This document shows positions 1,038-62,400 of a stretch of DNA of 64,000 nt, piece after piece (within the stretch, counting starts at the first letter, position 1; every line of letters begins with the position of its first letter). Location: the NCBI RefSeq assembly GCF_033153115.1, contig NW_026889774.1, positions 21,266,001-21,330,000 of the forward strand, in the 5' to 3' direction. The stretch comes from Saccostrea echinata. Its lineage: Eukaryota. The translations under genes and the position numbers were made by a program. The notes under the pieces were generated by a model. The model was not told the DNA's origin and ran no database searches. It saw nothing but the letters and a program-made list of their open reading frames with translations.

Positions 1038-3167
1038 CTTTTTTAATCTGGTCTTCTTCAATGCCAACATCAATCACTTTTTGCTTTTCCCCAATTAACG
1101 ATTTTATTTCCTGTGATAGCGGTTGTAACGTTTCTGTGTTTTTTACATAAAGTAACCCTAAAAATGTCAAAATTAAAATTCAAAATCTTTATTTAAACAT
1201 ATCAGATATTGAAAACTGATATCAATAGTGTTAAGGTAGTCCGATTCTCAGGATCTGAAAATCAGCTTTCAAGTAATTGAAAATGCTCACAAAAATTCCT
1301 CTGATTTCACAGAGTAACGTGAATTTACCCATGGTATTTCTTCAAAGTTCATCATTAAAGTTAATCATATTATATGGGGGAAATTATCAAATCTTAAATA
1401 TATTTTCAGGAAATGCGAATAAAAACACCAGCTATGCATTTTCTATTTGAAAATTGATCAACAAATATATTTTAGAATAAAAAAATATAGGTATCCAGGC
1501 ATTTGGAGAAAATTGCATCTTTTTTATGCTTATACAATATTTTAGTTCTTCTATTTACTTCAGTCGTTATATAATTCATAGTATACAATGCTTGTGTTTT
1601 CATTGCTAGACATCACAGATAACGTCTAATTTCATATCATGCTAATAAGCATTGGTATCGAAAGCTAAATTAAAGGAAATTCGATTTCTCTAAAAATGAT
1701 TTTTTTTTTCTTTTATGGGGTACAAATGTCAACTTCTTTAAAAGACCTTTTGTAAGACTTGTAGAGAAGCTTGAATCATATTGAGATGCATAAATTGAAA
1801 ATTGTTGCACGAAAAGATCTCAGTTTTAAGCTTCATTTTGAGACTTTTTAAATAAAATAATAAATTTAAGAGTTCTCCTTCCTGGCTGAGGATCGGACAT
1901 CCTTAAACCACAAAGCACCTGACGAATGGATGGTGTACATTGTAACTCCCCTTCCCCCAACCTTCCGCAAAAATAAAAAAATAATTATTAGACGCGATTA
2001 CTTAACAAAAATACATGAATTCCTAGCCTGTCATGCTTATATTCCGATATCTGATGTCATTTTCCATTTTTGTTCAGTTTTAGAGATTGACCCTTTACGG
2101 TATACATGTTCAAAAATACTACATACCGTAAAGGGCCAATCTCTAAAACTTCACAAAAATGGAAATATTGGGATATAGGTATGATAGGCTTAGAATTCAT
2201 GTATTTTTTATAAATATCCGTTCTAATAAATTTTTTAGAGGGTTGGTAGGGGATTTCAACGTCCATTCTTCAGGTGCCTGTGTCTTAAAGTACCGAAGTT
2301 CACAATACATGAAACGACTGTGAACGTTAACAAGGGGCCCAGGGGCCTTGACGGACACCTGAGTATCATGGGTTTCTGAGTCAACCCCACCGGAAACTAG
2401 AACTCTTAACTCATGTACATAAATTTTATAAATTAATGAAGACTGTATATTCACTATCCTATTCGTGGAGTTGGTTCCTATATTATTAGGAATAGAAAAT
2501 ATTGAAAAAAAAAATATTTTAAGATTTCAGTTTTTGTAGACAGCTACATTTTTCTCTTAAATGGTCTTTAAATGGCCTTAAATGGTTTGCCCTTAAATAT
2601 TTTATGATTAGAGAAAAAAGGGATTTTAAAAGAAGCTATGTAATGATACCTTTTTAAAAACATTTACATATATTACCAATAACGGAGCCTGAATCATGCA
2701 GGCTAGGGGCTTCAATATTGAGGGCTACGTGTTTATTATAATGATGCCAACAGTTCGATTGATTGATATCAGAAGTAAAAAAAAAAAAGAAAAGAAAAGA
2801 TTTTTGTTGATTGCATTAGTTTTGATGATTTTTACCGTATTCTTCAAACCGTAGGGTAAAACGAAATTCACCATTTTTGTTACCCTTTACTCATAAAGGG
2901 TTTAAATCAGAAGTATTGTTTAGTCATTGCAGTGAAGAAAGTGAAAATACATACGACTGCTACACGACCACGACGGCAAACAAAACAGACTGCAATCCAT
3001 TCAAGTTTTCTGGAAATAGGGGCTTAGTAATACTTAGTGATACATTTAACAAACGTATGTTTTAAAGTATCGGAAAATAAACGGAAGTTCAAAACTATAA
3101 AGAACTTTTTAACATATCATAATTATAATTGTATTTTCCTTTACAACTTACCTACTTTCCTCGTCAT
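1038..3167 (-). CDS. 5' part (exons 1-2) of a tandem paralogue of the TIR-like/caspase gene; continues beyond the window start
   Basis: Exon 1 3167-3152 (ATG ACG AGG AAA GTA G|gtaagt); exon 2 1157-1038 (tag|GG TTA CTT...AAA AAA G|gtaatt). Gives MTRKVGLLYVKNTETLQPLSQEIKSLIGEKQKVIDVGIEEDQIKK, 33/45 identical to the N-terminus of the gene at 20404, with the same exon sizes (16 and 120 nt). Confidence 0.8.
1235..1902. mobile_element. Non-autonomous DNA transposon with TTAA target duplication (Kolobok/piggyBac-like MITE)
   Basis: ttaa|GGTAGTCCGATTCTCAG ... CTGAGGATCGGACATCC|ttaa: imperfect TIRs and TTAA on both sides. Confidence 0.7.
2005..2210. repeat. ~200-bp imperfect palindrome (hairpin MITE)
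   Basis: 'aaaatacatgaattc...tttagagattgaccctttacggtat' mirrored by 'ataccgtaaagggccaatctctaaa...gaattcatgtatttt'. Confidence 0.75.
2328..3040 (-). mobile_element. Degenerate Helentron/HINE-like element
   Basis: Terminal motif 'aacaaggggcccaggggccttgacggacacctgagt' is the reverse complement of the HINE 3' end seen at ~35580; (cgac)n-like tract near 2965. Confidence 0.5.
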
Positions 3168-3189: not shown

Positions 3190-3203
3190 ACTTTCGTTTC
3201 ATT
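3190..3203 (-). promoter_or_regulatory. ISRE/IRF-binding element (AATGAAACGAAAGT) upstream of the paralogue ATG
   Basis: Plus strand ACTTTCGTTTCATT fits the ISRE pattern TTTC(N1-2)TTTC. An identical copy sits at the same distance from the other paralogue's ATG. Confidence 0.6.
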
Positions 3204-3271
3204 ATTTACCTATACGTAATTATATTTTAGGCACATCATGACATAAGTTACCAAATTTAGTATAGATAAAA

Positions 3272-3354
3272 GCCAGTCTGATTAAAAATCATACCTCTAT
3301 TACCTCTGTTTTTTTTTCATATTGATTGTCAATGTATGATTTTAATCAGACTGG
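3272..3354. mobile_element. Tiny hairpin MITE
   Basis: 'ccagtctgattaaaaatcatac' ... 'gtatgattttaatcagactgg', flanked by near-duplicate ataaaag/atgaaag. Confidence 0.55.
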
Positions 3355-4339
3355 ATGAAAGCCAAATGCCGAAATCCCAAGGATTTGATCTACAACAAAG
3401 AATATATCTTAGAGAACAATCTACTAAGGATTAATAATTCTTAAAACATGCAGTATTTAATTTAATCCAAAAGTTTGTAAAACTAATGTTCTCAATAATA
3501 AAAGTTTATATCTGTGTTTTACCGCCGCAAGACACTAGATTTTGTCAATGTAAGGCCCATATTTGTTAATATCTATCCTTGGAGGCAGGTCGATTCTAGG
3601 GAAAATCAAAGTACTGAAAGTACTCATGGGAGTTGAACATTGTAAAGTGAAAGATTTAACAGGAAGTAAAGGAGCTATAATGTCGGAACATTTTTTCATG
3701 CTTTAGATACAAGTCAACTATTGCAGATTTGATAGAGATACAACATCAAACATAAGAAATAATTTCAAAAACATTTGAATAACGAAGATCATGGGCCACA
3801 ATACTCACCTGAGTAACTTTAATGACTTTAACCGTGTTGTTCTTATTCAGATTTTCAAAAACTTTTACCACTTAATATTCCCATGTAGGGACGTAGCATC
3901 GTTTTTGAAAGGGAGGCCTCGAAAATTCTAACTCGAAAATTTTATTTTTTGGGTGTGGGGATTTCAGACCTTTTGAAATGTTAAGGAAAGTTTGGGCGTA
4001 GAGCAGGTCTGACCTGGTGTTGAAAATGAGCAAATTTACCACTACCTGATTAAGTCTTAAATTCGTGATACTTTATATGAATTTCACCTGTTAATTCCAG
4101 GGCATAGTCACAGCACAAAATGTAACAGGAAAGGAAGGAGAAAACTGCGACGGACCAGGCCCGAATTCGAATCCCGGTCTTGTCTCGCATTTTTCTCTCT
4201 TCTGTTTAATTTGGTGCCATACCCATTCCCTGAGAATGACAGGTAAAAAACCTACCAGGAAAGAACCTGGGTTGGTGTTTTGGGCGTGAAAACCTTTAAG
4301 GAGGGAGTGATGTGACAGTCAGATGGGTTCGATAGCTGG

Positions 4340-8483: not shown

Positions 8484-11400
8484 TTACTGGTTCCTAATCC
8501 ATTTCAAAAAGTCCTTCAATTCTCCATCCGGGTCTCCCTCATAAAGTTCTTTGGCATTTTTTATCTCCTCTGGCCATATAATGACATCCCTACTGAGCTT
8601 GTGATACAGACAGGGTACTGACTTATGACCACTGCTCTCACTGGTGCCTGTATCTGTCTCATATTTATAAGCTATTCTCCCAGAGACCTTTGTTAGCTCC
8701 GCCAGTAGATCAATTTTTTCTGGTTTTGTCTCCAAAGTTTCTTTCAGCTGAGTCTCCAGGTTTGTAATCAGCCACCCTCCTTGTTTATCTCTATTGTAAG
8801 CCTCTTTTCCTGAAAATATAGAATCAATTATTATTTATTAAAAGATATTAAGCAATATCCACACGCTGAATGTTTATTACTTGTATAAACAAATACCTGG
8901 AGCAGAGGCAAACATGACTAAAGCATCATTGACACAAGGTGGCGGATCACTTATTATAGGCTCTGGGAAAAAGAAATCCAGAATCTCTTGTTCAAATCCT
9001 TTACATTCCTCCTTTATTTCATTTATCTGATCAATTGTGAGGCCTTCTGAAAGTAAAGTCTCAAATAATTTGATGGCTATCTCATTGTCTGTTCCCTGTG
9101 CTTCCAGCAGTGAAATGGTTCTATGTTCCATGAGATATTTGTTGTAATCCAAAATATGTCTGTGCAGCACTGCAAGCTTTGCTTTTTTATTCCACTGTAA
9201 AAGAAAGATTTTATCTTGTTTTGAATCCCCTCACAACCATGAACAAAACTCAAATTATGAAACTGAACATCCACAACATTAAACAATGCCAGAATATTAA
9301 ATCAGTAATTAATTATATAATCTTTTTCATTAATATGTATTTTAATTTTAATGTATTTCAAAATTTTACTAATTCTTGTAATGTAATTTCATGGGTGATT
9401 CTTGTTTACAGAAGATTCAATGAACCGATATGTGAACATTATGTGGAAGTTATCGTTCGTAGGGATGTAAATTCCAGGGTTAGGATGATCCACAAAATCC
9501 ACAAACATTGGTCCCCATGAACAATGTTGATTTCACTAAATTTTATACTTGCCTCCTGGATTTGCTTTAATCTGGCCTCTTTATCTTCTTCTGTCTGCTT
9601 CGTTGTACTTCGCTTGGCATCTGTTGTATCCTGATGTGAAGTATCGCTTGAGGCATCTACAGAATCAGGGCTCTTTAGACCAGCCCTAATATCATTTTCT
9701 GCTGTCAAAACATTAACCATCACTCCAGGATCAAAGTTCTCATGTCCATCTAAACCAAATCGACTCCTGCATGACTGAAAAAAAAAATATTTATTGGACT
9801 TTTAACAACTGTTCAAGAAATATATATTTTCTTCACAAAGTTGTTAAATACATGAGAGAATGATAATAATTCTTGCTCAGAAAAATGAGAATTTTATATA
9901 TGCTTCTCTAAAACATAGGTAGTCAGAGATTATGTAGCTCATCTCAATGGATATTATCCTTAAGTAAGGCACAGTCCAGACCTAACAAATAATCTAGTAT
10001 TATCCATCCCTAGATGCAACATTTATGCAAATTTTGTGCAGGAAGGGCTTGCAGTTACTTGGAAATGGACTTGCTCGAAAAACTTTAATATGGTCACTCA
10101 TCCAGAAAATACAGACCAGACCTAGCATCAAAATCAAGTTTGGAAGTCATATTCCTTGATGCATAATCCATACATGTTTGGTTCAGGAAGGCTTTATAAA
10201 TACTTGCAATTGGACCTGCTAAAAAATTAACCTGGTCACTCATCCAGAAAACGAATGTCAGATCCAGGATCCGAAACATGTCCAGTAGTGTACTAGATGC
10301 ATCATAAATCTAAGATTGGTCCAGGTAGGGCTTAAAATTACACTTGAATGAACGTGCTCCAAAATCATTAACCTGGTCACTCCTCCAGAAAATTCAAGCC
10401 AAACCCAGCTTCTGAAGCAAGTCTGGTAGTGTGCATTCTTGGATACATCATCCATGCAAGTTTGGTCCAGATAGGGCTTGAAGTAACACTGAAATCAACC
10501 TGCTCAAAAAACTAAAACCTGGTCACTCATCTGGAAATACAGGTCAAATCCAGCATATGAAGCAAGTCTGGTAGTGTGTATTAAAAGATGTATAATCTAT
10601 GCAGTTTTGGTCACACGAGGCTTACAGTTTATCTAAAATGTTATTTTAAAGCTTACATTATTTTAAAATGAACCATCCAAAAAATGTAGGTCAGATACAG
10701 CTTCTGAAGCAATTCTGATAGTGTGCATCCTTAGATGTATCATCAAATGCAAGTTTGGTCAATGTAGGGGTTATAGTTATTTGAAAATGAGAATGGCTTC
10801 AAAGACTTTAACCTGATTAATAAGACCTGCTCACTCAGAAAATGAAGGTCAGATCCAGCATCTTAATTAAGTTTTGTAGTGTGCATTCTCAGATGTATCA
10901 TCCATGCAAGTTTGGAAATGAGACCTGCTCTAAAAACTTTTGCCTGGTCCAAAAACATAAACCTGCTCAAAAAACATTAAGCTGGTTATTCTTTGGCCGA
11001 AAATTCACCTTCTGAAAACTGACTGGTACAATGAAACATACTAGAAGCATCATCTATGCATCTCTTATCAATATAGGGTGTGAAAGTACTTGCTCCAAAT
11101 ACTTTAACTTGGGATGCCGGCGCTGAAGACATTTAGGGTATTATATAATCTCCCCCAACTTCACTGAGGTAAGTGAAAAACAAAAATCATTCAAAACACA
11201 ATTTATCCTTAAATTTACACAGATTTAAGATTTAAGTATTTAACACTAGACAGAATGCAAGTTTTGGCTTGAAGAAGTGCATGGGAATATATCTTGAATG
11301 AGGGTTATTAAATACATGTGCAGTAAAAACTGTCTTATCCGACACCTGTGAAATTCATTTCACTGTAAATTACGACCTTTATTTTAATTCCATTTTAATA

Positions 11401-14400
11401 ATGGTCTTTACACTGGGTAATCCAACACCCTGCTAATCCCAACACAAAATGTGTCTCCCAGTGCATGTCAGATTAGACAGGTTTCACAGTATACATAATG
11501 GCAAAGCAACAGGATTAAATAAATAAAAATATTACCTGAATAAAAAAAAGACAGGGTTTGCCTTCAAGAGCCGAACAATTGTGTTGGTCAAACATTCTGA
11601 TAATGTCTCTTGTTAAAAGAGACTTTCCATTATGGAAGAACAACTGATGTACCATTTCAGTCCTAGGTTTCTTTTGAACTGTGATCCCAGATGGGTGCTG
11701 CTCATGGGGCTCTTTGTTATCCTCTTTAATAACCATGGGTACTTCCTGTCCGTGTGTACTGATGATTAGTACAAAGAAGCTGGGCTTCAGTTTCTTACAC
11801 CAATTTATTCCTATGTCATGTCAAAAAAAAAAATGAAATATTCACATGTATAATTATGTAAATCATAGTATAATGAAAAAGACTGGAGTAAAGTATCAAT
11901 AAATCTGACTAGTTATAAACTAGATTATAAATAGAAAAAGTAGCAATTACCTTCTTGTAAAAATTGTATTGCTTGTTCAGCAGTTGGATTAAGTTTCTTT
12001 TTCACAAAACATCCCAAGTTTTCAAAACTATCCTTCATCTTCTGAAATTCCTTTGAAGAAGAATGCCTGTTCTCTAAAGACACCTCAGCTTTTTCAGAAT
12101 CGGCATCAAATTCCAATAAACCAATGTAGAGACACAGGCCAGGATTTTTAAGGGGATAACTGTTATCCTCCTCCACTTTGTCATCAGTGTTTGTTCCGGC
12201 GACAAAGCTATGCAATACAAAATGAAAAATTATGCAAGGCCATCTTTAAAAAATTGTTTGTTTGCCCTCTCCTGACCGACTGGCTAAAAATAGTCTGACT
12301 CATTATCTGACTGATTTATCTCCAGGAAATTATATTTTTTTCCTTTTCATTTCGAATTTTTCTCATCCCTTCATATTTTGAAAATTCAGCATTGATGTTG
12401 AAACTTTCTAGGAAATTTTTTTTTCCAACCTACCTACTGACCCAATTTTTTTTTTAACCCTGAATCGGTAGAGGGCAAACAAAAATTATTTTAAAATGGC
12501 CCAGAGTATGATTCTATGCAGCATTGAAGCAGTGGCAGAACCTTCCATGTCTGAATCTATACAGACTTTTTAAACAAGAATAGGAAGAGCTAAAAGATCT
12601 AACAAAGAGGTAAAAACACTGTAATTATCTATAATTTATCCTTCACATTTCTTGAAAATATCTTGGACCAACAATCTTTTAAGGTATAAATTTAATGGCC
12701 AGATCCTGAGATATTCTACATCTAATTAGAAGTTCTATATAAATTGAAAAAGGAACTCATACTTAATGCCAGATTCCTTTGAGATTTCATCTTCATCATT
12801 TGGTTTTGTAGAAAGGTCTGGAGCTTTCCCTTGATTGAAATTTTCCAAAACCTCAACTTTTAGAAACTGTGGTTCTTTGTTCTCTGTTGGAGTCTGAACA
12901 GGGGTAACAGTATCTACTTGGTCTTTTGAGCTACTGGAACAATTTTGATTGTTGAATTTGTCCACAATTTGTTTGGCTAGGGTTTCGATGCTTTCTTGAT
13001 TGTTGTTTTCCATTGTAACAACCATGTGACATGTTTTTGATCCATGTTCAAGGTATTTTTCATCTTCACTTATCACAGTGGCTTTTGAGGTGAAAGAAGG
13101 AAAAGAAGTCAGAAGGTGCTGGTTTATGTTACAAACCACAACCAAAGTGAACTCAATTCCATCATCTTCTTCATCATCATCCAACAGCTCTGAATATGAA
13201 AACAAAATTAGATATGTCATATATGAAAAACATCCTTTAAGGAGGCTGGGGGGTCAACAAATTAACCACAAATTAACCACCAGATTTAACTTAATTTTTT
13301 AGATATGATATCTTAAGCTGTCAACTATCATTTGGCAAAGAAAATTTTCAAAAATTTTAGTTTTAAAAATTGATCATTTTCTATATCTTCATATGGAGCT
13401 CTTCCTCTAAAGGAGATCAATATAGTCTAAAAATGGCCACAACCCCCCAGTCTCTTTAAAAGACAACTTAGGAAAGAATAATCTTAAAAACACCCCTGAA
13501 AAGACAATTTAAGAAAGAATGATCTTAAAAACACTTAAAAATAAGTCTGCCATTTTGAAACAAGAGGCTCAAGGGCCTTTACAGTCACCTGCATATAATA
13601 CAACAATTTAGAGGATCCATAGAAGTATGAAATAAATTGATAGATGAAACTTTATTATCCAAAAGCAAGAAAAATAGGATGATCCACAAAATAATTAGTC
13701 TAGTAACAGTAACAGCTCATAAAGTATAAGTTCCTCTTGCCCCCATTTATCACTATCACCATGTAAACTATAACCTCTCACATCATATTTATATGCAGTT
13801 AGTTGGAGATTTTCAAAGAATAAAAAAATTAACACATTTTCACTATATTACAGGTATCAATAGATCCCACCCTTACACCAGAACATCTGATTCAGGGGCA
13901 ATGAAACTCACATTTCTTTTAAAGAATTATTAGAAAGTTTTAATTTAAATTCATTGTGTGAACCACTGTGGTATAATAATAAAATAAAGATTCAAAATAA
14001 ATATGTATTTTGTAAGCAAATGTTTGATAAAGGGTTCCACATAGTACATGACTTATTCAATATAGAAGGTAATTTTATTAGCTATGAAAGTATCACAAAA
14101 TATTATTTAGTAAAATTACCATTTACCACACATGAGGGTCTGAAGCAAAGTATTTTGAGTGCATGGCCAAATATCAAGCAATTGTCATATAATACTACTG
14201 TCAAACCATATCAACCTGAATTTATAAAAATACTTTGTAAGAACAAAAAAGGATCCAGAAATATTTATGATTATTTAATGTCAAAAATACAGCACAAACC
14301 AATTTGTGAAAACAAATGGGCTACTGATCTAAAGTTAAGAGTCAAATTTCAACTGGAAACATGTTTATGCAAACTTTAAATTGATAACGAAAGACTCGGG

Positions 14401-17400
14401 ACTTATGTGGTTTAATTATAGAATTATTCATAGAATATTAGGTACTAATAAGTACTTATATTTGTCTAAAATTAAAAATTGAACACTTTGTTCAATATGT
14501 AAATTAGAACCAGAATCAATTAAGCATATATTTTTCTACTGTCCACAGGTTTCTATGATTTAATGGCTAGAATTGTCAGATTGGATTTTTCAAAAGTCTG
14601 GTAAAAGAATTGAATTTGATGTGAAAACTGTTATTTTTGGTTATCTGGAAAAAGATCACATGGTAATAAATTTGATAATCCTGTTGGTGAAGAAATACTT
14701 ATTTCAACAATCAAGAAAAAACAATAATATTGTCTTTAATGAAATTTCAAAATATTTAAACAATTACTATACTTTAGAGGAAAAAATGTCAGAAAATACA
14801 TTTTATAAAAATAGATGGTCCAAGTGGAAATGTCTTTTTAATGTGTCTAATAGTAACTCTTAATATTATGAATGAATATGTATTGTAAATCAGGTATTTA
14901 TGTTTATTTGCATGTGTATGTATATATATACATATATATGTATGTGTATGTATCTGTCCAACAGGTATGAGAGTGGGAGAGAGAGGTGTATATGTTTTGC
15001 AATTACATAAATAAAAAAAACCCTCGCATTTCTGGAAGAAACCCCTTGCTCATCATAACTATACACTTAGTTTATTTGTTTTATAACCAGGAGCTTAAAA
15101 GAATATTTTCAAAGAAATTATGCATTTTCACTATATAATCAAAAGAGCCCCCCCCTTTCACCAGAACCCCCGACCATGTGCAGGAATTTCACAATTTTTG
15201 AAGAGGCATCCTTGTTATCATAACCATGCCTTTAGTTTGTTTACATAATACATAGGAGCAGAGAAGAAGATTTTCAAAGAATTAATGCATTTTCACTATA
15301 TTTTCAATAGAGCACCCTTCCAACAACAGGACCCCTGACCCAGGGGCCATGAAATTCACAATTTTGGAAGAGGCATCCTTACTCATCATAACTATATACT
15401 TGGTTTGTTTGTTTGATAGATAGGAGCAGAGAAGATTTTCAAAGAATTAATGCACTTTCATTATATAATCAATAGGTCACCCACATGGCGCAGTGGTTAG
15501 AGCATCTGCTCATGAGTCGCAGAGTAAGGAGCTTATCCTTACGTCGTGGGTTCAAATCCACTGCAGGAAGTGGAGATCGGTCCTTGGGATGAGACCATAT
15601 AAACCCAGGTGCCAACTTGCAGAAGGTGTTGGCACAAAAAAGATCCCTCAATGCTCAATGGCCCTGAGTGCCAAGTATTGGTATAAATTTGCAGCCCTCC
15701 ACTGGCAAGTGGTGGAGTCTCCATATAAGTGAAAAATTCTTGGGTGAGACATTAAAACAAACAAACAAAATATAATCAATAGAGCCAGCCACCCCCCCCC
15801 CCCTTCGCAGAACCCCCTCATCCTGGGGCCAGAAATTTCAAAATTTTAGAAGAGGCACCCTTGCTCATCATAACTATGTACTTAGTTAGTTTGTTTAATA
15901 CACAGGAGCAGAGAAGAAGATTTTCAAAGAAATAAAGCATTTTCACTATATAATCTACATAGCCCCACCCTAGAACCAGAACCCCTGACCCTGGGGCCAT
16001 GAATTTCACAATTTTGGTAGAGGATTCAGTGCTTATTACAATCATGAATGCCAACAGTTTGACTGCTTGTTGTCGGGGAGTAAAGAAGATTTTTAAGGAT
16101 TGCATTAATTTTGGTGGTTTTAGCCCCACCCCTCAGGCACCAGGGGGGCAGAGACCATGAAATTCAGAATTTTTGTCCTCCTTCACTCATACATGCTATA
16201 TGCCAAAAATGTTGAAATACTTTGTATCGCAATTACCTCACAGTTATTCAGGGGCATGAATTACTTGCGTTAGTGACAATCAAATGATTTGAACAATTAG
16301 TATGCCGAAAGTACTATGTATTGCAAAGGGATGAACTTCTAATAGTAGGTTGTCTAATTTGGAATGTTTAAATTTTTTTTTATCAGCTTCCAAAAGTAGC
16401 GATAATCAGAAAGAAATGGTTGAATTTAATTAGAAGAGTTGGCTTACTGAAAAAGTATCAAAAAAAATTAACACATGAGGACTAGGTTCTCTTAAAATTT
16501 ATAAGTGTGGTACAGGGAATGTTCTGCAAGATTCTTTCATATCTGTCCTTTAAAAATCCACAATGCTTATCTCGCATAGCCTGGTTCTCTGTCCCTGTTA
16601 TGCCTCGTATACTCCGCGATACTGCCTTGGCAAGGATGAGCCAGGGAACCAGGCTAGATATCACGTTGTATGGAACAGCACATTGCCCCCAGTTAACAGA
16701 CATTTCCTACCTTCACCGAGAAAGAGTTCCATTAAATAAAGTAATCGCAATATCAAGTATTGGTTCAGCAGTTCCAGAGAAGAAGCTGAAAATGTTCAAA
16801 TGGTAACACACTACGCAAGATGCACAACCCACGACAACGGACAAAAAGGGATAGCAATAGGTCACCTGAGTGACTTAAGTGACCTAAAAAAGCTATGCAA
16901 CTGTGTCTTGCATCTTGCTGAAATGTAATCATTTCAAGGTTATAACAATTCTGGTCTTGAGCATCCTTTGTGTTGAATATAAACTATGACCTTTCACAAT
17001 CCTAGCATTTATATACCATACAGTGGGTTTCTTTAGTGGGTGTAAAATTTGGCATTTTGCTTGCTCAAAGGTATGCCAATAATTTTGGAGAAACTTTTTT
17101 GGCAGACACTCAGTTACATAAGGTTGTAAAAGAAAGGAAGTTCACCTTCTAGATGAGTTTAAGTATGTTGAATTTACGTTTGAATACTGATTTAGACGAG
17201 AGTTTGAGTTAAAATCAACATCAGATGAAAGTGTATTGTTTAACAGCAGACTGATCGAAGTTAATTATGTTCTCCTATTCAGTACTTATACACAACGGTG
17301 CAAATTTAGTGATAATTTTTGCGGGCTACTTAAAACCACTAAAATAAGTTAGCACACTGCTAAATATATGGTATCATTGTCCCAAGAACGTCTCAGCCAT

Positions 17401-20400
17401 GTGACCTTGAGTTTATGCAAACAGCCATGAATCATGACAGACCTCTTGGTCATAACCAATCTTCATGTCGACTATGAGTCTATGACCAAATATGCTCTCC
17501 TTGCATTTCCAAGTCCTTCAAATTTTGTCACTTCTGAACCTGTGACCTTGACCTAGTCTTAATGACCTTTATTTAAGGTTGTGACGCATCCTATGTTCAT
17601 AATGAACCCTCAGGCCAAGTATGATCCTCTTTATATTATTCCCTTACAAATTATGAAACAAAGAATTTTATACTTCAAACTCAGTGACCTTGTCCTTGTC
17701 CAACTGACCATAGTGTAGGGTTGTTACACTCTCTGGTCACCAACATTATTTGTACTTTGAAACTTATGGTGAAGATACATTTAAACAACCTGTGACTTGA
17801 CCTTGTCCAAATTAATCTGGGTTAAGGTCATGACATACCCTCCAGTCACAACATTTGTCTTGAGTATATACGTGTATAAGCTTCTAACATTTATAACACC
17901 CTCACAGTAGCTCAGTTGGTAGAGCACTTGCTCCATAATCGAAAGGTTGTGTGTTCGAATCACAGCCGAGACTGACCTAAGTCGATAAAAAATAGGTAGC
18001 AACTGTTCCTTCACCAATTGCACATTGGAGCTAAAGTTGTGGGTCTTTCGGATGAGACCTTAAAAACCAAGGCTACGTGTCACGGTAGGCATTGGCACGA
18101 TAAAGAACCCTCACTGCTCAATGGCCCTTAGTGCCAAGTAAAGGTCTAAATTTGAAGCCCTTCATCGGTATATGGTGACGTCTCTATATGAGGGAAAAAT
18201 TCTCGAACGGGACATAAAACAAAACACAATCAATCAATCAAATCTAACATTTATACATTTCAAGTTGTGACTAGAACAATAATTTATGCACAAAATATTT
18301 TTAAAAATGTAAACCCTAAAAACAGCATCACCTCTAGTATGCACAACTCATTGCAGCTGCATCAATTGTAAGTTGTAAAACATACCATATTCTCCCAATT
18401 TAATGCTTGATTGAATGAAATCTAACCATGTTCCATGTGACTCATGTATACATCAGAAATATTGTAAGATATTTTACCTTCCAGTTTGTTGTGGATTTTA
18501 TTTGATTGCTCTTTCCAAAATGTCTCCCAGAAAACATTGTCTGTGATTACAATCAGTGAGGTTACTGACTTCAGATTTTTACCAATGTGCTTTGCAATTG
18601 AAGTGAGATTTCCTGAAAAATTATATTGTAATTTAAAAATAATTTTCAAATGACAATGCTATATACAGTATCATGTACATGTATTGGTGTTGTATAGAAG
18701 GAATTCCCCCATAGTCATGCAGCTTTCCCCTCCCCCCTCCCCAGTATATCTGTACTCTAAAACAGGATTCTCCCCCAGCAGAAATTTCACACTAGAGCCA
18801 CACTTCCCTTTCCTTTTTTCCCCCCCCCCCCCAAGAGTACGATTTCCCCCAACCTTATAAACACTAAATTTTAGCTCTCAGGGCCATTATAATCCACAGC
18901 AACAATACTTCGGCTAAAGTTTATATGAAAGTCAACTAGTTATTTTAATGGAAAATTGAGTGTTTTCGACTCATAAATTGTTCATCTTAAATATAAATTC
19001 TAAAAATATCTTTCAAAATATCTTTCAAATTAAATCATAGAGTTTAAACTCAAAATTGACTCTCAAAAGAAATTGCAATCAGTGATAAAATTCAATGTCT
19101 CAAGTCAACACCTCTCGTGGCGCTGCACAGTGGTGCCTGTATATGTCATAAATTTTTCAATAGATATTAGGCCACCTTTAAAAATTTAATTTGTTTTCCC
19201 TCTACAATATCAACCCAGTAGAGGAGTCTTAGACATTGTTATTCCATAGACTAGTTTTAATTCTCATATAAACAGAAACTGTGCTTTTGGATATTAAATG
19301 AATAATACTTTAATGGTGAGGAAATTGGCACTGGGGAAATTACACTCTCACTGACTCCATATAATTAATAACTGTCAGAGTAGCCCCTCCCCAAGGGAAA
19401 ATAGAATCCAGTGTAGGATTTGATGCAAATGTATATATCAAAGACATGCCACTGAATAAAATCCAAACTAAGAATGTAGGGGAGAAGCCATGTGCAATAT
19501 TGTTGGTTAATTGGAGGATAGCCACTCTTCCCTTGAGGCTTCACTGGGGAAAACTCACTATAGCCAGCTTTCCAAGGGAGAAGTCTCACTATACACAGGC
19601 CTCTGAATTTCTATCAATAAGCCCTTACATGATTGATTAGAGTAATATATATATACCCCTCTATATTTATATATAGAGGGGGTATATATATATTACTCTA
19701 ATCAATCATGTAACGGCTTATTGATAGAAATTCAGAGGCCTGTGCACTATATGAGGCTGGTACACAGGTACATGTCTTACATAGAATTTAAAAAAAAGGG
19801 TATAGTATCTAAATCTGATGTGATTTTACAGTGAAAATATAGGCCCAATGAAAAGTATTATCCTCTCTGTAAAGCAATAATTCAAGAATTCTACCTTCTT
19901 GACCATGTTTTCACCTCAATGATCCCAGTCCTATTAAGTTTAAACTGCACAGCAACATTATTACCTGGTTTTATTTTGTCCTCTTCAATGCCCGCATCAA
20001 CCACTCTTTTCTTTTCCTCAATCATAGATTTTATCTCATTTGATAGCGGTTGAAACGTTTTTGTGTTCTTTACATATAGTAACCCTGTTAAATGTCAAAT
20101 AAAAAAAATGAGAGATTTATTTTGTCTTCATTTTTTTCTTCCTCTAAAACCTAAACATAACAACTCATAACAGATATAAAAGTTAACTCATCTGAACAGA
20201 ATTAAATCACTACCAACATTTAAAATGGCTGTATAACAATAGGTGTTTCGTCGATCCCAACTTTCGCAGTATCATTTACAAACGTAATTTGTTGTACACT
20301 TTAAAACAATGGTTAAATGTCGGAAGTTCAAAGTTATAAAGAACTCAGAAAGATATAATAATTATATTTGTTTCTTTTTTTAACTTACCTACTTTCCCTG

Positions 20401-20404
20401 TCAT
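8484..20404 (-). CDS. Caspase-family cysteine protease (peptidase C14), 691 aa, 9 exons, with a non-CARD/DED (TIR-like) N-terminal domain
   Basis: Exons 20404-20389, 20084-19965, 18612-18478, 13189-12763, 12207-11951, 11810-11536, 9774-9553, 9194-8897 and 8809-8484 total 2076 nt with all phases compatible (one GC-AG intron). p20 motifs: YPLKNPGLCLYI, LENRHSS, FFVLIISTHG (catalytic His), NCSALEGKPCLFFIQ|SCRS (catalytic Cys). p10 motifs: DALVMFASAPG, GGWLI, DLLAELTKV, KSVPCLYHKL. Confidence 0.9.
9990..11175 (-). repeat. ~140-145-bp tandem repeat array (HINE-type internal satellite) in caspase intron 6
   Basis: Unit 'acctggtcactcatccagaaaat...tctggtagtgtgcat...catccatgcaagtttggtc' recurs at ~10092, 10232, 10374, 10520 and more degenerately beyond. 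Confidence 0.7.
11321..11490. mobile_element. Tc1/mariner-type MITE
   Basis: 'cagtaaaaactgtcttatccgacac' ... 'atgtcagattagacaggtttcacagt' inverted termini. Confidence 0.5.
12237..12502. mobile_element. MITE with ~40-bp TIRs (second copy at 51870-52092)
   Basis: 'ggccatctttaaaaaattgtttgtttgccctctcctgaccga' ... 'tcggtagagggcaaacaaaaattattttaaaatggcc'. Confidence 0.7.
13241..13455. mobile_element. TTAA-flanked MITE (near-identical inverted copy at 47598-47801)
   Basis: ttaa|GGAGGCTGGGGGGT ... ACCCCCCAGTCTCT|ttaa. Confidence 0.8.
13918..15020 (+). mobile_element. 5'-truncated, decayed non-LTR retrotransposon (L1/Tx1-type ORF2 C-terminus)
   Basis: ORF remnants EPLWYNNKIKI, WFNYRIIHRILGTN and the C-x2-C...ESIKHIFFYC zinc-knuckle region, with stops and frameshifts. 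Followed by a (TA/TG)n tract and an AATAAA-polyA tail; flanks ctcacatttct/ctcgcatttct resemble a TSD. Confidence 0.8.
15476..15769 (+). mobile_element. tRNA-derived SINE
   Basis: A-box 'tggcgcagtggttagagc', B-box 'ggttcaaatcc', (aaac)n tail and 13-bp TSD atataatcaatag; core shared with the SINE at 17896. Confidence 0.85.
17896..18242 (+). mobile_element. tRNA-derived SINE
   Basis: A-box 'tagctcagttggtagagc', B-box 'gttcgaatc', (caat)n tail and 13-bp TSD tctaacatttata. Confidence 0.85.
19594..19744. mobile_element. 151-bp near-perfect palindromic MITE with a 7-bp TSD
   Basis: cactata|CACAGGCCTCTGAATTTCTATCAATAAGCC...GGCTTATTGATAGAAATTCAGAGGCCTGTG|cactata. Confidence 0.85.
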
Positions 20405-20425
20405 TTTAAAAAGTCTACTAAGACT

Positions 20426-20439
20426 ACTTTCGTTTCATT
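20426..20439 (-). promoter_or_regulatory. ISRE/IRF-binding element 22 bp upstream of the caspase ATG
   Basis: ACTTTCGTTTCATT, identical to 3190-3203, while the spacer to the ATG has diverged between paralogues. Confidence 0.6.
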
Positions 20440-20448
20440 ATTGGCCGA

Positions 20449-50138: not shown

Positions 50139-53100
50139 ATGTCTCTACGTATATTCCTAGGAATTTTAGTATTTATTCCATTTTCTCAAGGTAACTACCT
50201 TAAGTAATATATGACCTTTATCTTTGCATATATTTTGTAAAATTTACTTGGAATACAAATCTATATTTTCTTCTTAGCCAAACTATTGTGATCCTGTAAA
50301 AATGCAATATTTAATTATCTCTTTACACCTATAAAATGTTTTTGAACTTTTAGAAAATTATATTGTATAAAGATGAAAATATTCAGCTCATGTAATATGG
50401 AGATAACTAACAGTAATCAACCTCAAAAGTCCATTGAATCAAAACAAATCAGGAGCAGAGCAAACACGGACCTCCAAAACACCAGTGGTGGGATCATGTG
50501 CCACGGAAGAATGAGCATCTCCTGTCGACCGATCACACCCTCCGTGTGCTCATTGTCATGATCGGGCAAACGGAAAAATCCGCAGACAATTCAGTGTTAA
50601 AATAATGCCTAATGAAAAAACGTCAGTCAGCACTCGGCTTAATGATAGATTGTATTTGCTGACAACAACGTCACTGTATCGACCATAGAACTTGCGAAAT
50701 GATGACTCTAGACGAGACTGTTGATATCCTTGTTTCATCAACTTGTTTGTCAATAACTTGCCTCGTTTTAGAAGTTGTTCGTACGTGGAGCATGCTCTTG
50801 CGTATCGAAGTAACTGGGAGATATACATGTATTTCATTTTAACATAGACTATCTGCCATTCTACCTCCAGAAAAACATGTTCAAAGATGAACATAAATCA
50901 CTTTAGATTTGCTTACTTATTTGGGGAGAAGGATGTCACTAAATAAACGCATAAGAAACAAACAACTTTATTAGTCCCCTACCGGTGAAACCGGAGGGGA
51001 CTATAGGTTTCCTCTGAGTCTGTCCGTCCGTCTGTCTGTCTGTCCGTCTGTCTGTCTGTCGGTCTGCCCCACTTGGTTTTCCGCATCTTTTTCCTAAACG
51101 CTTGCAGATATTGAGCTGATTTTTGGTATGTGAGTGTATCTTGATGAGTTACAGATCAAGTTTGCATTTCGTTCCGCTTCATTGATTTTTGACGGAATTA
51201 CGGCCTTTTCAATTTTTACGGGTTTTCCGCAATTTTCTTCTAAACGCTTGTAGATATTGAGCTGATTTTTGGAATGTGGCTTTACCTTGATTAGTTATAG
51301 ATCAAGTTTGCATTTCGTCCCGCTTCATTAATTTTTGACGGAATTATGGCATTTTCAATTCTTAACGGGAACCAGATTACACTTGCTGGTAGGGGACTTG
51401 TATTGCTAATGCAATACTCTCAGAATGCTTGTTCAGTGAGCAAGGCGTTATGAATAGCATTTGCTCTGCTGACATATTTTCCACGATGAGCTATCGCGTA
51501 TGATGGAAAATATGCCAACAGAGCGTTTGCTATTCATAAAGCCATGATCACAGAATATCGTTATTAATTATATTAGCATTTTATGGTTTGATAAGAATGA
51601 AAGTGGAAAGGCTGACTGTGCTTTGTTCACAGCTGCATGTTAGGCATAGGCTAAAACATGAATAAAAGTAATGCATGAAAATACTAGTAAATCAGAAGTG
51701 ACCATTACACTTTAATTCCATCTGCATCATATACAATAAACACGATACTTCTAAACACAAATCTCGTGATAAATGAGAAAGATAGAGATTGGCGCCCCCA
51801 AATATCTAAAATCAAACTATTGTATGACCATATGAAGAAGAACATTACAATCTAAAATTTTATCTTTTAGGCCATCTTTAAATTTTTTTGTTTGCCCTCT
51901 CCCGACCGCCTGACTAAAAACTTATTTAACCCCAGGAAACGATATTTTTTTTCTTTTTATTCCTGAATTCTCTCATCCTGTCAATAAGTATTTTGAACTT
52001 TTCTGGAAAAAATTTAACCATCTACCTACCGACCCAATGATTTTACCCTGAGTCGGAAGAGGGCAAACAAACATTAGTTTAAAGATGGTCTTAACACGAA
52101 TTAAGAGCATATTTAAATGTCAGATCTAGTCAATGTATGCCTTTTGATAATAAACTTTCATAAGATTTTCATTTTTATTATTTACCAACATGATTTTATA
52201 ATGCTTATCTCGAAAATTATTTTAAAAATCAGGACAATGGCAAACCGGTGGTGGAACTAACGGTAATCCAGGAGGTGGTGGAGGAGGCCAGGACGTCTTG
52301 AACGGCCAATCAGCACCGGCTCAGAGGCCAAGCTTAAGACAACAGCAGCAACAGCAACTACAACAACTTCCTGGGTTCCCCCAACAACTACAACAAACAG
52401 CTGGGTTCCCACAACAACTACAACAAACGCCTGGATTCCCACAACAACTACAACAAACGCCTGGGTTCACTCAACAACTACCTGGTCTCCCACAGAATTT
52501 TCAAACATTACCCCAACAAAACAACTTTTTAGGTGAGAGAGGACAAATGTTACTTCTGACCAACGGAGCTGCAAGTATTATGATAGCTAATAGGGATCGC
52601 CTCCCCCGGGAAAGAATCCGGAGGGTAGGGGTCCCAGTGTCTCTTATTCGTGCTTTTGCTATTCAGCCTGAAGTTTTGCTTCCACGCTCGCTTGCAGCTA
52701 ATGCACAACCTACTAATCAAACACCAACAACAGCACGAGGTATGTTTTTTTTTACTACAGCTTTATATTTAGCCATATAAATTTTATGCTATATAACATA
52801 TATGTATATCAATATCTTAACATTATCTTATATCAAGATTTAATTATTATAAAAGACGGAATGTGCATAGCTTGCCTTTCTGGGTTGCTTTAATGCTTTT
52901 GATATTGTAACGCTTCTACTATGCCCTTTGTGAATTTTGAATGGAAAACATTAGATGCCAGAGTATCCAAACTGTTCAAACATTCGACATTTTCTGTCAG
53001 TCCTGTGGGTAATGGGTGATATTAAATTTTTCACTATGCACAATATCAAATATTTAACCACCGGTATATTGCACACATATACACATATAAATATGAAATA

Positions 53101-59412: not shown

Positions 59413-62400
59413 CTGTATATTTCTTTAAAATGAAAATGAGTAAGCTTGTACTTTTGTATAAAGGTTTACAGAAATGTGTTTGTAAATAACAATTTTGCTT
59501 TCTTTCTTTGTTTTAATAATATATATTCACTGCACTATATTTATTTGGTCCAGGCACACAAGGACAGTTCCCAGGAAACGGTAAGTTACTAATATACAAT
59601 TTTTCATATATGCAACAGATTTCTATCAAATTGGTGTTCGGCTTTTGACGTTTTTGAAAGTGTACTTTTATCCATTCTATCCTTTTTCGAAAAGAAAATT
59701 GGACATTCTAAATTGTCTGATCGAAGAATATTGTCCTATTACAGTCCCATCTACTTTCAAGACTCCCAAAGTCACATTTTACTGAAGGGGGTACCCCATC
59801 CACCCGTCCATCTGCTTCCTTCGTGTCTGCTTTTGCGGTCTTTTCCATTCTTAATTCTTAATTGCATACATTTAAATGTTTTAGTATTTAAAGTCTTTTT
59901 CACGGTGTTGGAGGTACTGTGTAATAGTGACAGAGGTGAAATGTTTTAAAAATTACAAATAATTAGCTTTAAAAATAATAAATCTGCTATTCTAGCTCAA
60001 CAACAAAGAAACTTTCCTCAGTTTAATCGAGGTACAATGCACCTGCTAATCAGTGCATAAATGTATGTGCTAAAAATCTTGTAAAAATGCTTGTTTGATT
60101 TTTTTTCTGTCTTATGTTCTAAATAGTACATTTAAGAGAGAGCTTTATTTGAATGATATTCACAGGGTTATTATAAAATTATTAGGACAAAAAGATTTAA
60201 GACAATATAATACCCAAAGCACGGTTTTAAAAATTACAAATAATTAACCTTAAAAGTAATAAATTTGTTATTCTAGCTCAACAAGGAAACTTTCCTCAGT
60301 TTAATCAAGGTACAATGCACCTGCTAATCAGTGCATAAATGTTTGTGCTAAAAATCTTGTGAAAATGCTTGTTTGATTATATCTGTTTTATGTTCTATAT
60401 TTTAAGAGAACGCTTCATTTGGGTAATATTCACAGGGTAATCATAAAATTATTAGGGAAAAAATTAAGACAGAGTGTAATATCCAAAGCACGATTTTAAA
60501 ATTATAAATAATTAGCTTTAAAAGTATAAGTTTGCTATTCTAGCTCAACAACAAGGAAACTTTCCTCAGTTAAATCAAGGTACAATGCACCTGCTAATCA
60601 GTGCATAAATGTATGTACTAAAAAATCTTGTAAAAATGCTTGTTTTGATTTTTTTCTGTCTTATGTTCTAAATAGTAAGAGAGAGCTTTATTTGAATGAT
60701 ATTCACAGGGTTATTATAAAATTATTAGGACAAAAAGATTTAAGACAATATTAATATAATACCCAAAGCACGGTTTTAAAAATTACAAATAATTAACCTT
60801 AAAAGTAATAAATTTGTTATTCTAGCTCAACAAGGAAACTTTCCTCAGTTTAATCAAGGTACAATGCACCTGCTAATCAGTGCATAAATGTATGTGCTAA
60901 AAATCTTGTGAAAATACTTGTTTGATTATATCTGTTTTATGTTCTATATTTTAAGAGAACGCTTCATTTGGATGATATCCACAGGGTTATCATAAAATTA
61001 TTAGGGAAAAAATTAAGACAGAGTGTAATATCCAAAGCACGGTTTTAAAAATTATGAATAATTAACTTTAAAAGAAATAAATTTGCTATTCTAGCTCAAC
61101 AACAAAGAAACTTTCCTCAGTTTAATCAAGGTACAATGCACCTGCCAATCAGTGTATAAATGTATGTGCGAAAAATCCTGCGAAAATGCTTGTTTGATTA
61201 TATCTGTTTTATGTTCTAAATGGTAAGAGAAAGCTTCATTTGGATGATATCCACAGGGTTATTATAAAATTATTAGGACAAAAAGATTTAAGACAGAGTG
61301 TAATACCCAAAGCATATAAAACAAATCCTTAAAACTTTTCTTCAGAACTTTTGTTGGTGATATCACCTTAGTATTTGTAATGCCTTTTTGTGAATCATAT
61401 ACATGTATAATGATATGTTTATTTCAACGAGTTCAATAAAATTTTTAACACCTTCGGTTTTTGAGGATGAAATCAAACATTTGTTTGTCTGTTATTGATG
61501 ATTATTAACAAAATCATAACTTTACTCCTTTCAACGGTAAATGATAATTTGAAATACACTAGGGTGTACGCCAAATTATATCGAATCAGGATTAAGATCA
61601 TTTTACAATTATACAATTATTGAGGATTGTTAATTACAGAGGATCTAAATAATTTCAAGAAATTAGAATAAAAATTATCACTTTTAAAAAGAGTAGGTCT
61701 ATCAAAAACAAAACAACAGATTTTTTTACCAGTTGTCAACTGAGTACTGTAAATGAAACAATATTTTTCTATCTAAATGCTCTTTGCACAATATATTGAT
61801 TATATTTGAAAATTCAAAAGTCTGCTGTGAAAACTTTTTAAGATTTATGTCATTTCTTCTCAATGTATTAGTCAATGTATGACTGAAAAATAGTTCATTT
61901 GTTCTAGCTCAACTTCAAGGAAATCCTCCGCAGTTTAATCAAGGTACAATGCACCCGCGAATCATTGTATACATGTTAGTGGCAACATGCGTGTGAAAAT
62001 GCTTGTATTGGATAATATTCACAGTGTAGTTAGTGTTTTTGATTATTTTCGGTAGGTTGTTGATAGTATAACACCTCAATAAAAGTTCCTTTTTTAAAAT
62101 GTTTTAAAAGAAATTTTTATCCTATGTTAATTCCAGTGATTTCAAAATGCTTAAAGACATTTCAATTCATAATCTAGAATAATCAAATTTTTATCACAAT
62201 TAATTATATTTAGATGATAACAATTAACCAGATAAGAAAAGTAAATAATTATAAATATCTAACTTATACAATTTGATGTTACACCTAACGACATAATTTC
62301 AATTAGGATATTATATTATTGCTACGAAGAAATACAAGTAAAATCAGAATTGTGAAGATTATTCACAAGATTTTAAGTATAAGATTTTAAGTATAAGTAC

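What the first reader, a model, noticed from the sequence alone, without database searches (positions are those of the whole stretch)
20315..20440. Conserved ISRE plus ETS site at both caspase paralogues: candidate IRF-induced antiviral genes
Seen: ACTTTCGTTTCATT occurs 22-23 bp upstream of the ATG in both copies (20426-20439 and 3190-3203). CGGAAGTTCAAA occurs ~84 bp from the ATG in intron 1 of both (20321 and 3082), while neighbouring non-coding sequence has diverged. Established: TTTCGTTTC is the core of vertebrate Mx/OAS-type ISREs, and bivalves have IRFs and a poly(I:C)-inducible interferon-like response. Inference: these caspases are IRF target genes, fitting an innate-immune role for the TIR-like fusion.
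Basis: partly seen in the sequence, partly recalled or inferred. Interest (0 to 1): 0.7.

Follow-up and report, generated by a model that had tools for sequence, protein, structure and literature searches.

The report
IRF-type site at oyster caspase genes
Two duplicated cell-death protease genes of a rock oyster keep a short DNA switch, of the kind read by interferon-regulatory factors, right beside their start codons; it probably gives steady expression with only a mild rise during viral infection, not a strong antiviral burst.

Summary
Both motifs are where stated. The genes are oyster caspase-3/7 (long-linker group) paralogues; copy B equals RefSeq LOC133192159 of Saccostrea echinata from residue 26.

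The claim that the flanks have diverged is only partly right. The motifs sit in a 128-bp block that is 78% identical. The sharp upstream edge is made by a 2,614-bp Mutator-like insertion in copy B, whose 9-bp target duplication overlaps the motif. Paralogue conservation alone is therefore weak evidence.

Better but indirect support: the annotated N-terminal extension of the Magallana co-orthologue (proteins 48% identical) reads E-S-R-L at the same codon offsets where copy B reads E-S-S-L, which implies the same GAAAGTAG core.

In a published OsHV-1 dataset both Pacific-oyster co-orthologues share a co-expression module with two IRFs, but rise only 1.2-1.5-fold in 2 of 12 contrasts each. One IRF rises up to about 9-fold.

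The ETS site is 107-110 bp away, so this is no ETS-IRF composite. The N-terminal domain is flavodoxin-like; TIR identity is unproven.

Best reading: a real IRF-type element giving basal, mildly inducible expression (0.55). Binding and the transcription start are untested.

The parts
20426..20436 (-). IRF-type element of copy B, GAAACGAAAGT on the sense strand, 21 bases before the ATG
20424..20442 (-). 19-bp run identical in both copies; holds the element and a possible 4-codon upstream ORF (M-K-R-K-stop, 20438-20424)
20389..20404 (-). copy B exon 1, coding part (ATG, 16 nt), donor GTAAGT
   Evidence: homologue starts MSGKVG, MTGKIG, MTDKIG
20321..20332 (+). ETS-type box CGGAAGTTCAAA in intron 1 of copy B, end of a longer conserved intron stretch
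8484..20084 (-). copy B exons 2-9 (20084-19965, 18612-18478, 13189-12763, 12207-11951, 11810-11536, 9774-9553, 9194-8897, 8809-8484): 691-aa caspase-3/7-group protein with His-Gly and QSCRS sites
20443..23056 (.). 2,614-bp Mutator-like non-autonomous element with 79-bp inverted arms (84%), inserted 6 bp upstream of the first GAAA of the element
20434..20442 (+). left target-site duplication TTCATTATT, overlapping the motif's flank
23057..23065 (+). right target-site duplication TTCATTATT
23085..23178 (-). displaced upstream sequence of copy B, homologous to 3341-3430 of copy A (66/97)
3190..3200 (-). IRF-type element of copy A, 22 bases before the ATG
3152..3167 (-). copy A exon 1, coding part (ATG, 16 nt)
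3082..3093 (+). ETS-type box in intron 1 of copy A
1038..1157 (-). copy A exon 2; later exons lie outside the window

Best explanation
GAAACGAAAGT is a working IRF-binding element in the core promoter or short 5' leader of an oyster-specific caspase-3/7 gene family. With an ETS site at the start of intron 1 it forms a compact promoter around exon 1. Resident IRF and an ETS factor keep the genes on in the steady state; when viral sensing raises IRF levels, the caspase transcripts rise modestly and lower the cell's threshold for death. SHOWN: motif form and position, gene identity, shared ancestry of the block, the insertion in copy B, weak co-induction of the Pacific-oyster co-orthologues (published table). 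INFERRED: conservation in Magallana (from a translated extension), IRF or ETS binding, transcription start, and any effect on antiviral cell death.
For: Two of the window's 4 strict ISRE hits and 2 of its 3 CGGAAGT hits lie within 85 bp of these ATGs (one ancestral event, not two). The 19-bp run is the longest exact word shared between the compared caspase regions, while the spacer beside it is at random level. Magallana Cg3/7A models begin MEIESRLGLWAR-M, and copy B's leader reads NESSLSRLFK-M in frame: E, S, L at codons -9, -8, -6 in both. E-S-R occurs at 10 of 127,996 six-frame positions in the window. The two proteins are 48% identical and sit on either side of a 0.69 branch. The preceding E-I is compatible with GAAA-NN-GAAAGT, the two-base-spacer form. 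Both co-orthologues (G27507, G27508) are in the fed 'yellow' infection module with IRF genes G746 and G748, and are up in 2 of 12 contrasts each (PMC12803857 Tables S7-S9). Oyster IRF2 and IRF8 activate ISRE reporters (PMC5557890); CgIRF1 binds ISRE (as cited in PMC13524488). IRF1 sustains basal expression through GAAA sites (PMC7819612). A reporter with the same TTTCGTTTC core was already active without interferon (PMC11871823).
Against: The paralogues are not saturated, so the identical runs have P up to 0.15. The neighbouring oxidoreductase pair shares exact runs of 21, 20 and 14 bp in apparently non-coding DNA. No Magallana DNA was seen: only 15% of background-weighted back-translations of EIESR form a strict ISRE, the match was noticed after the fact, and a second allele has a 12-nt longer spacer. 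Induction is 1.2-1.5-fold and absent in 10 of 12 contrasts. 15 of 17 caspase-named rows in the fed list share that module, so membership is not specific. A reporter with the same ACTTTC end was not interferon-responsive (ISRE7). Use of exon 1 in copy B is not shown: RefSeq P0001 starts in exon 2.
Confidence: 0.55

Rival explanations
1. Shared ancestry only: the motifs are unchanged stretches of a moderately old tandem duplication and carry no IRF function.
For: Four-fold sites differ at 3 of 13; the block and its flanks align; P of the runs is 0.04-0.15 at 75-80% background. The upstream edge is an insertion. The control pair shares 21-, 20- and 14-bp runs. Neither motif is enriched in the window.
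Against: It does not explain the E-S-(S/R)-L match at identical offsets in Magallana, nor that the two longest non-coding runs both fall on known motif types while the spacer between motif and ATG has drifted.
Confidence: 0.15
2. One reading: these caspases are classical, strongly dsRNA- or virus-induced IRF targets.
For: Same motif evidence as the best reading; module shared with IRFs. Whole-animal sampling at 3-12 h could dilute a strong response in one cell type or at a later time (inference).
Against: Values of 0.26-0.63 in 2 of 12 contrasts per gene, against 0.49-3.24 in 12 of 12 for IRF G746.
Confidence: 0.12
3. The site is functional but read by another GAAAG-binding factor (Blimp-1/PRDM1-like; consensus recalled, not tested) or by a repressing IRF, or it is part of a basal promoter unrelated to immunity.
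For: Weak inducibility. The long-linker caspase group is highly expressed in gill, palps and haemocytes and responds to abiotic stress (PMC11543851). The element ends in GAAAGT, not the GAAACT of the Mx ISRE.
Against: Two GAAA half-sites at ISRE spacing appear to be kept, and expression moves with IRF, not against it.
Confidence: 0.1
4. What is conserved is a 4-codon upstream ORF (M-K-R-K-stop) that damps translation of a death protease.
For: The identical run covers exactly 4 bases of context plus ATG to TAG, with A at -3, in both copies.
Against: No synonymous change between the copies. In Magallana the same letters appear to be read in another frame as an N-terminal extension without the stop. 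It requires the site to be transcribed, which was not shown.
Confidence: 0.08

Closest known systems
Vertebrate ISRE / IRF-E (chicken Mx promoter AGTTTCGTTTCT, PMC6794983; IRF1 GAAA sites, PMC7819612)
   Same: Two GAAA half-sites with a one-base spacer, TTTCGTTTC core, close to the gene start.
   Different: Ends in GAAAGT rather than GAAACT (10 of 12 match); only 21-22 bases from the ATG; target genes rise only weakly; binding not shown.
Oyster IRF-ISRE signalling (CgIRF2, CgIRF8 in PMC5557890; CgIRF1 on the CgIFNLP promoter as cited in PMC13524488)
   Same: Same host group; supplies factors able to read such a site.
   Different: Those tests used mammalian reporters or CgIFNLP; no caspase promoter appears in the passages read.
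Cg3/7 (AMZ04158, XP_034299640) and Cg3/7A (XP_011451826), bivalve caspase-3/7 long-linker group (PMC7836458)
   Same: One oyster clade at 100/100 support, tandem pair, His-Gly and QxCRS sites, long linker.
   Different: The Saccostrea and Magallana duplicates arose separately. Copy B has QSCRS. The group is described without a prodomain motif, but an ordered 170-aa alpha/beta domain is present.
IRF1 control of mammalian CASP1, CASP7 and CASP8 (recalled; no call)
   Same: An IRF site near the start of a caspase gene sets basal level and adds modest induction.
   Different: Not orthologous caspases; oysters lack true interferon; any parallel would be independent.
ETS-IRF composite element EICE (definition recalled)
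   Same: An ETS core and an IRF core near one gene start.
   Different: The cores are 107-110 bp apart and split by exon 1, not adjacent.

Membership tests
ISRE / IRF-binding element | two GAAA half-sites, 1-2 bases apart, followed by G/C and T/C | tested here: met
   GAAACGAAAGT in both copies
ISRE / IRF-binding element | full Mx-type sequence AGTTTCGTTTCT | tested here: not met
   ACTTTCGTTTCA, 10 of 12
ISRE / IRF-binding element | lies at the promoter or transcription start | tested here: inconclusive
   21-22 bases before the ATG; contigs cannot show a start
ISRE / IRF-binding element | more conserved than its flanks between paralogues | tested here: inconclusive
   19/19 against 52-71% in flanks; P 0.001-0.15; control pair has similar runs
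ISRE / IRF-binding element | conserved in orthologues | tested here: inconclusive
   indirect positive from the translated Magallana extension; no orthologous DNA obtained
ISRE / IRF-binding element | gene induced by virus or dsRNA | tested here: inconclusive
   co-orthologues up 1.2-1.5-fold in 2 of 12 contrasts each; poly(I:C) table could not be mapped to these genes
ISRE / IRF-binding element | bound by an IRF and needed for activation | not testable with these tools
   needs EMSA, CUT&Tag or reporter mutants
ETS-IRF composite element (EICE) | ETS and IRF cores adjacent (GGAA-NN-GAAA; recalled) | tested here: not met
   107-110 bp apart
bivalve caspase-3/7 long-linker group | groups with Cg3/7 and Cg3/7A | tested here: met
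   oyster clade 100/100; accessions named Cg3/7 and Cg3/7A in the supplement of PMC7836458
bivalve caspase-3/7 long-linker group | His-Gly and QxCRx sites with a long linker | tested here: met
   HG and QSCRS; PF00656 E 4e-24 spread over residues 231-634 for a 233-position model
TIR domain (N-terminal domain) | flavodoxin-like alpha/beta fold | tested here: met
   Ostrea N-terminal model pLDDT 84.6; RPS4/RRS1 TIR Z 11.3, rmsd 3.5, 138 aligned
TIR domain (N-terminal domain) | closer to TIR than to other flavodoxin-like folds, or a TIR profile match | tested here: inconclusive
   tied with a flavoprotein (Z 11.5) and an FMN reductase (Z 11.1); 0 of 8 members hit a Pfam TIR model; Atlas feature score 0.79 is a lead only
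Mutator-like transposon (20443-23056) | 9-bp target duplication and long terminal inverted repeats (definition recalled) | tested here: met
   exact TTCATTATT on both sides; 79-bp arms at 84%
Mutator-like transposon (20443-23056) | encodes a MuDR-type transposase | tested here: not met
   longest stop-free frame 99 aa; non-autonomous, so the family is inferred from the ends only

The most novel reading that the evidence does not exclude
Oyster caspase-3/7 genes are direct, ancestral members of a native mollusc IRF regulon, with the element kept at a fixed offset across oyster genera. They encode an unrecognised TIR-fold prodomain that could couple innate sensing straight to a death protease. 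Copy B is a natural experiment: a Mutator-like insertion has cut away all upstream DNA and left IRF site plus intronic ETS site as the whole promoter.
Probability: 0.15. Interest if true: 0.62.

Novelty: new member of a known kind. Interest (0 to 1): 0.35.

Why it matters
Oyster IRFs have mostly been tested on mammalian reporters, so native target elements are scarce in the papers read. A 130-bp promoter with one IRF site, one ETS site and a natural insertion right at its edge is a small, cheap substrate for defining the mollusc IRF motif and for asking how antiviral signalling reaches cell death in an animal without interferon. The principle is known from vertebrates and the measured induction is small, so this would add an example, not change the picture.

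Tried and rejected
No genome is held for this window, so no genome-wide motif enrichment or copy count could be run.

Orthologous DNA: two metagenome scans found nothing. No RNA holder was listed on record. Of 4 runs laid on 19760-20600, X2 gave no cover; X3 (RNA is a guess) gave one contig from 20084 spliced to exon 3 and no cover of exon 1 or the motif; X10 had low depth over about 20340-20426 whose pieces were not printed; X11 gave a contig whose loose end reads as a start codon plus exon-1-like codons joined to exon 2. None covers the motif in a relative.

Expression: the poly(I:C) study PMC7064767 uses CGI ids that I could not map (15 caspase rows). LOC ids were absent from the files searched in PMC8917759 (5 of 16 files not searched) and PMC6182001. 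PMC12705076 supplements were not readable. These unseen tables may bear on inducibility.

Alternative first exon at the motif: rejected, no donor follows it in copy B. EICE: rejected on spacing. Bacterial promoter scan: irrelevant here. Full-length model was poor (pLDDT 50) and matched only caspases. No TIR hit by sequence in Pfam or PDB; the N-terminal region search found 4 proteins, 3 named oyster proteins and 1 unnamed. Earlier scan notes: nothing in 4 look-ups.
Full report
OBSERVATION. Both motifs are exact at the stated places. Both genes lie on the minus strand. ATGs at 3167 (copy A) and 20404 (copy B) open a 16-nt coding exon ending in a GTAAGT donor, in frame with a 120-nt exon 2. On the sense strand the element reads GAAACGAAAGT, 22 and 21 bases before the ATG; the ETS-type box lies in intron 1, 107-110 bp from it.

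THE GENES. One exon of copy B is 100% identical to RefSeq LOC133192159 of Saccostrea echinata. A 9-exon model gives 691 aa without internal stop and equals that protein from residue 26, so RefSeq misses the true start. Relatives begin MSGKVG, MTGKIG and MTDKIG, which supports the ATG, and a contig of run X11 joins such a start to exon 2. The protein has a caspase domain with His-Gly, QSCRS and a long linker. Its Pacific-oyster relatives are Cg3/7 and Cg3/7A of PMC7836458. A 16-row tree puts all 13 non-outgroup rows in one clade (100/100), with separate duplications in Saccostrea and Magallana (the outgroups are long branches). Copy A has only two exons in the window; that it is LOC133192950 is an inference.

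IS THE CONSERVATION SPECIAL? Only modestly. The motifs lie in a 128-column block at 78%. By segment: motif run 19/19, spacer 12/23, exon 1 14/16, intron up to the ETS box 37/52, ETS box 12/12, next 60 bp 40/70; random pairs average 0.48. Four-fold sites in exons 1-2 differ at 3 of 13, so the copies are far from saturated, and the two runs have P between 0.001 and 0.15 depending on the background assumed. The neighbouring oxidoreductase-like pair (8 of 21 four-fold sites differ in the 2 of 6 stretches that could be counted) shares exact runs of 21, 20 and 14 bp in apparently non-coding DNA, though over several kilobases. In the window, 2 of 4 strict ISRE hits (2.8 expected) and 2 of 3 CGGAAGT hits (2.6 expected) are these sites; they count as one ancestral event.

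THE UPSTREAM EDGE IS A TRANSPOSON. In copy B a 2,614-bp element (20443-23056) has 79-bp inverted arms at 84% and an exact 9-bp target duplication that overlaps the motif's flank. Those ends are typical of Mutator-like elements (recalled); it has no long ORF. Beyond it, homology with copy A resumes: 66/97 identical, 1 of 200 shuffles as high, 0 of 200 in the narrower test. Its end is also found joined to other flanks in runs X3, X10 and X11. Whether it is fixed is unknown.

EVIDENCE FROM ANOTHER GENUS. I obtained no orthologous DNA. But 10 stored Magallana protein models of the Cg3/7A type carry an N-terminal extension, MEIESRLGLWAR (5) or MEIESRLGLKVSLWAR (5), before the shared Met. Copy B's leader translated in frame ends NESSLSRLFK. 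With the shorter allele, E, S and L fall at codons -9, -8 and -6 in both, and GAAAGTAG plus one base can only give E-S-S or E-S-R. E-S-R occurs at 10 of 127,996 six-frame positions in the window, about 0.1% even if any of 16 codons is allowed. The proteins are 48% identical, a distance at which unconstrained DNA should not align (inference). The preceding E-I fits GAAA-NN-GAAAGT. Caveats: noticed after the fact, codons unseen (15% of weighted back-translations give a strict ISRE), the models are not independent, and the longer allele shifts the offset by 12 nt.

EXPRESSION. In PMC12803857 (OsHV-1 cohabitation; I read sections 11, 41 and 48, passages, and rows of Tables S5, S7, S8, S9, S11) G27507 (105345395) and G27508 (105345396) are in the fed 'yellow' infection module with IRF genes G746 and G748 (kME 0.66 and 0.68 against 0.92 and 0.80); only G27508 is in the starved list. 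Their values, which the text indicates are log2 changes against 0 h, are 0.40 and 0.63 (G27507) and 0.26 and 0.38 (G27508), each non-zero in 2 of 12 contrasts; G746 is 0.49-3.24 in 12 of 12. 15 of 17 caspase-named rows among the 2,327 fed genes share that module (30 of 32 rows shown). So these genes move with IRF, weakly and not specifically. The poly(I:C) study PMC7064767 (passages; searches in its supplements) could not be mapped.

MECHANISM. Most likely (0.55) an IRF reads this site, an ETS factor reads the intron site, and together they keep the genes on and let them rise a little when IRF rises. Basal control by IRF1 through GAAA sites is described in PMC7819612 (passages). Oyster IRF2 and IRF8 drive ISRE reporters (PMC5557890, passages). 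In PMC11871823 (section 17) a reporter with the same TTTCGTTTC core was active without interferon, and one ending in ACTTTC did not respond, so a motif match does not prove inducibility. Rivals: shared ancestry (0.15), strong antiviral induction (0.12), another factor or a repressor (0.10), and a 4-codon upstream ORF that coincides exactly with the conserved run (0.08).

THE 'TIR-LIKE FUSION'. The Ostrea N-terminal 178 aa, folded with 7 relatives, gives a confident alpha/beta model (pLDDT 84.6). A plant TIR heterodimer scores Z 11.3, tied with a flavoprotein (11.5) and an FMN reductase (11.1); no Pfam TIR hit. The fold is TIR-compatible; membership is open. PMC7836458 (abstract, passages, second parts of sections 7 and 10, supplement search) says these caspases have no specific prodomain motif and never uses the word TIR. 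The cloned Cg3/7 protein lacks about the first 140 residues.

NOVELTY. Searches for ISRE, oyster, promoter and IRF, for six accession ids (0 papers; LOC105345396 was not among them), for invertebrate ISRE motifs and for the motif letters listed no paper on an IRF site at these genes; most were seen as listings only, and the library lacks most subscription papers, including the original Cg3/7 paper, which I saw only as cited. PMC11543851, PMC13524488, PMC6794983 and PMC12705076 were seen as passages; PMC8917759 and PMC6182001 only through supplement searches. IRF control of mammalian caspases is recalled, not checked.

VERDICT. A real, probably functional IRF-type element at a known caspase family: a new member of a known kind. 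Interest 0.35.

Noticed in passing
window 20443-23056: Mutator-like non-autonomous element with a 9-bp target duplication sits immediately upstream of the motif in copy B; its arms are built of 33-bp tandem units and its end is joined to other flanks in three runs.
   Followed up: yes
window 20404-12900 (minus), residues 1-170: Ordered flavodoxin/TIR-compatible prodomain on oyster caspase-3/7 proteins; not noted in the family survey read, and missing from the cloned Cg3/7 sequence (541 aa).
   Followed up: partly
window 20404-20026: RefSeq LOC133192159 lacks the first 25 residues; the start is in a 16-nt coding exon.
   Followed up: yes
window 9552-9195 (minus): Intron 7 uses a GC donor (GCAAGT); the S. 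cucullata model P0053 reads through the matching place, probably a mis-model.
   Followed up: partly
window 20438-20424 and 20404-20389: The motif (ATGA...GAAAGTAG) resembles the coding part of exon 1, as if one arose by a short duplication; exon 1 thus adds a third GAAAGT half-site.
   Followed up: no
window 20084: The only X3 contig on gene B begins exactly at the exon-2 acceptor. Magallana LOC105345396-type models have two alternative starts (MSVG, MFAG), so alternative first exons are possible.
   Followed up: no
window 24445-29365 and 32612-39929: Tandem pair of quinone-oxidoreductase-like genes, head to head with caspase B; the second copy gave no match for one exon and an out-of-register match for another, so it may be decayed.
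   Followed up: partly
window 25783-26392 and 34153-34261: Apparently non-coding block with exact runs of 21, 20 and 14 bp shared by the oxidoreductase pair, split by a 510-bp palindromic insertion in the first copy.
   Followed up: partly
window 3210-3354: Copy A has about 115 extra bases upstream of the motif, with a perfect 15-bp inverted repeat (3273-3287, 3340-3354); possibly another insertion.
   Followed up: no
window 1976-2236, 19594-19744, 25807-26317, 30093-30246: Long palindromic insertions, the first three in introns, probably miniature transposons.
   Followed up: no
window 13891-14863 (plus): Two open frames in intron 3 that look like LINE retrotransposon remnants (recalled resemblance; the first had no Pfam hit).
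   Followed up: no
window 52226-52780 and 59943-61314: A glutamine-rich 184-aa frame without Pfam hit, and a tandem array of about 280-bp units.
   Followed up: no
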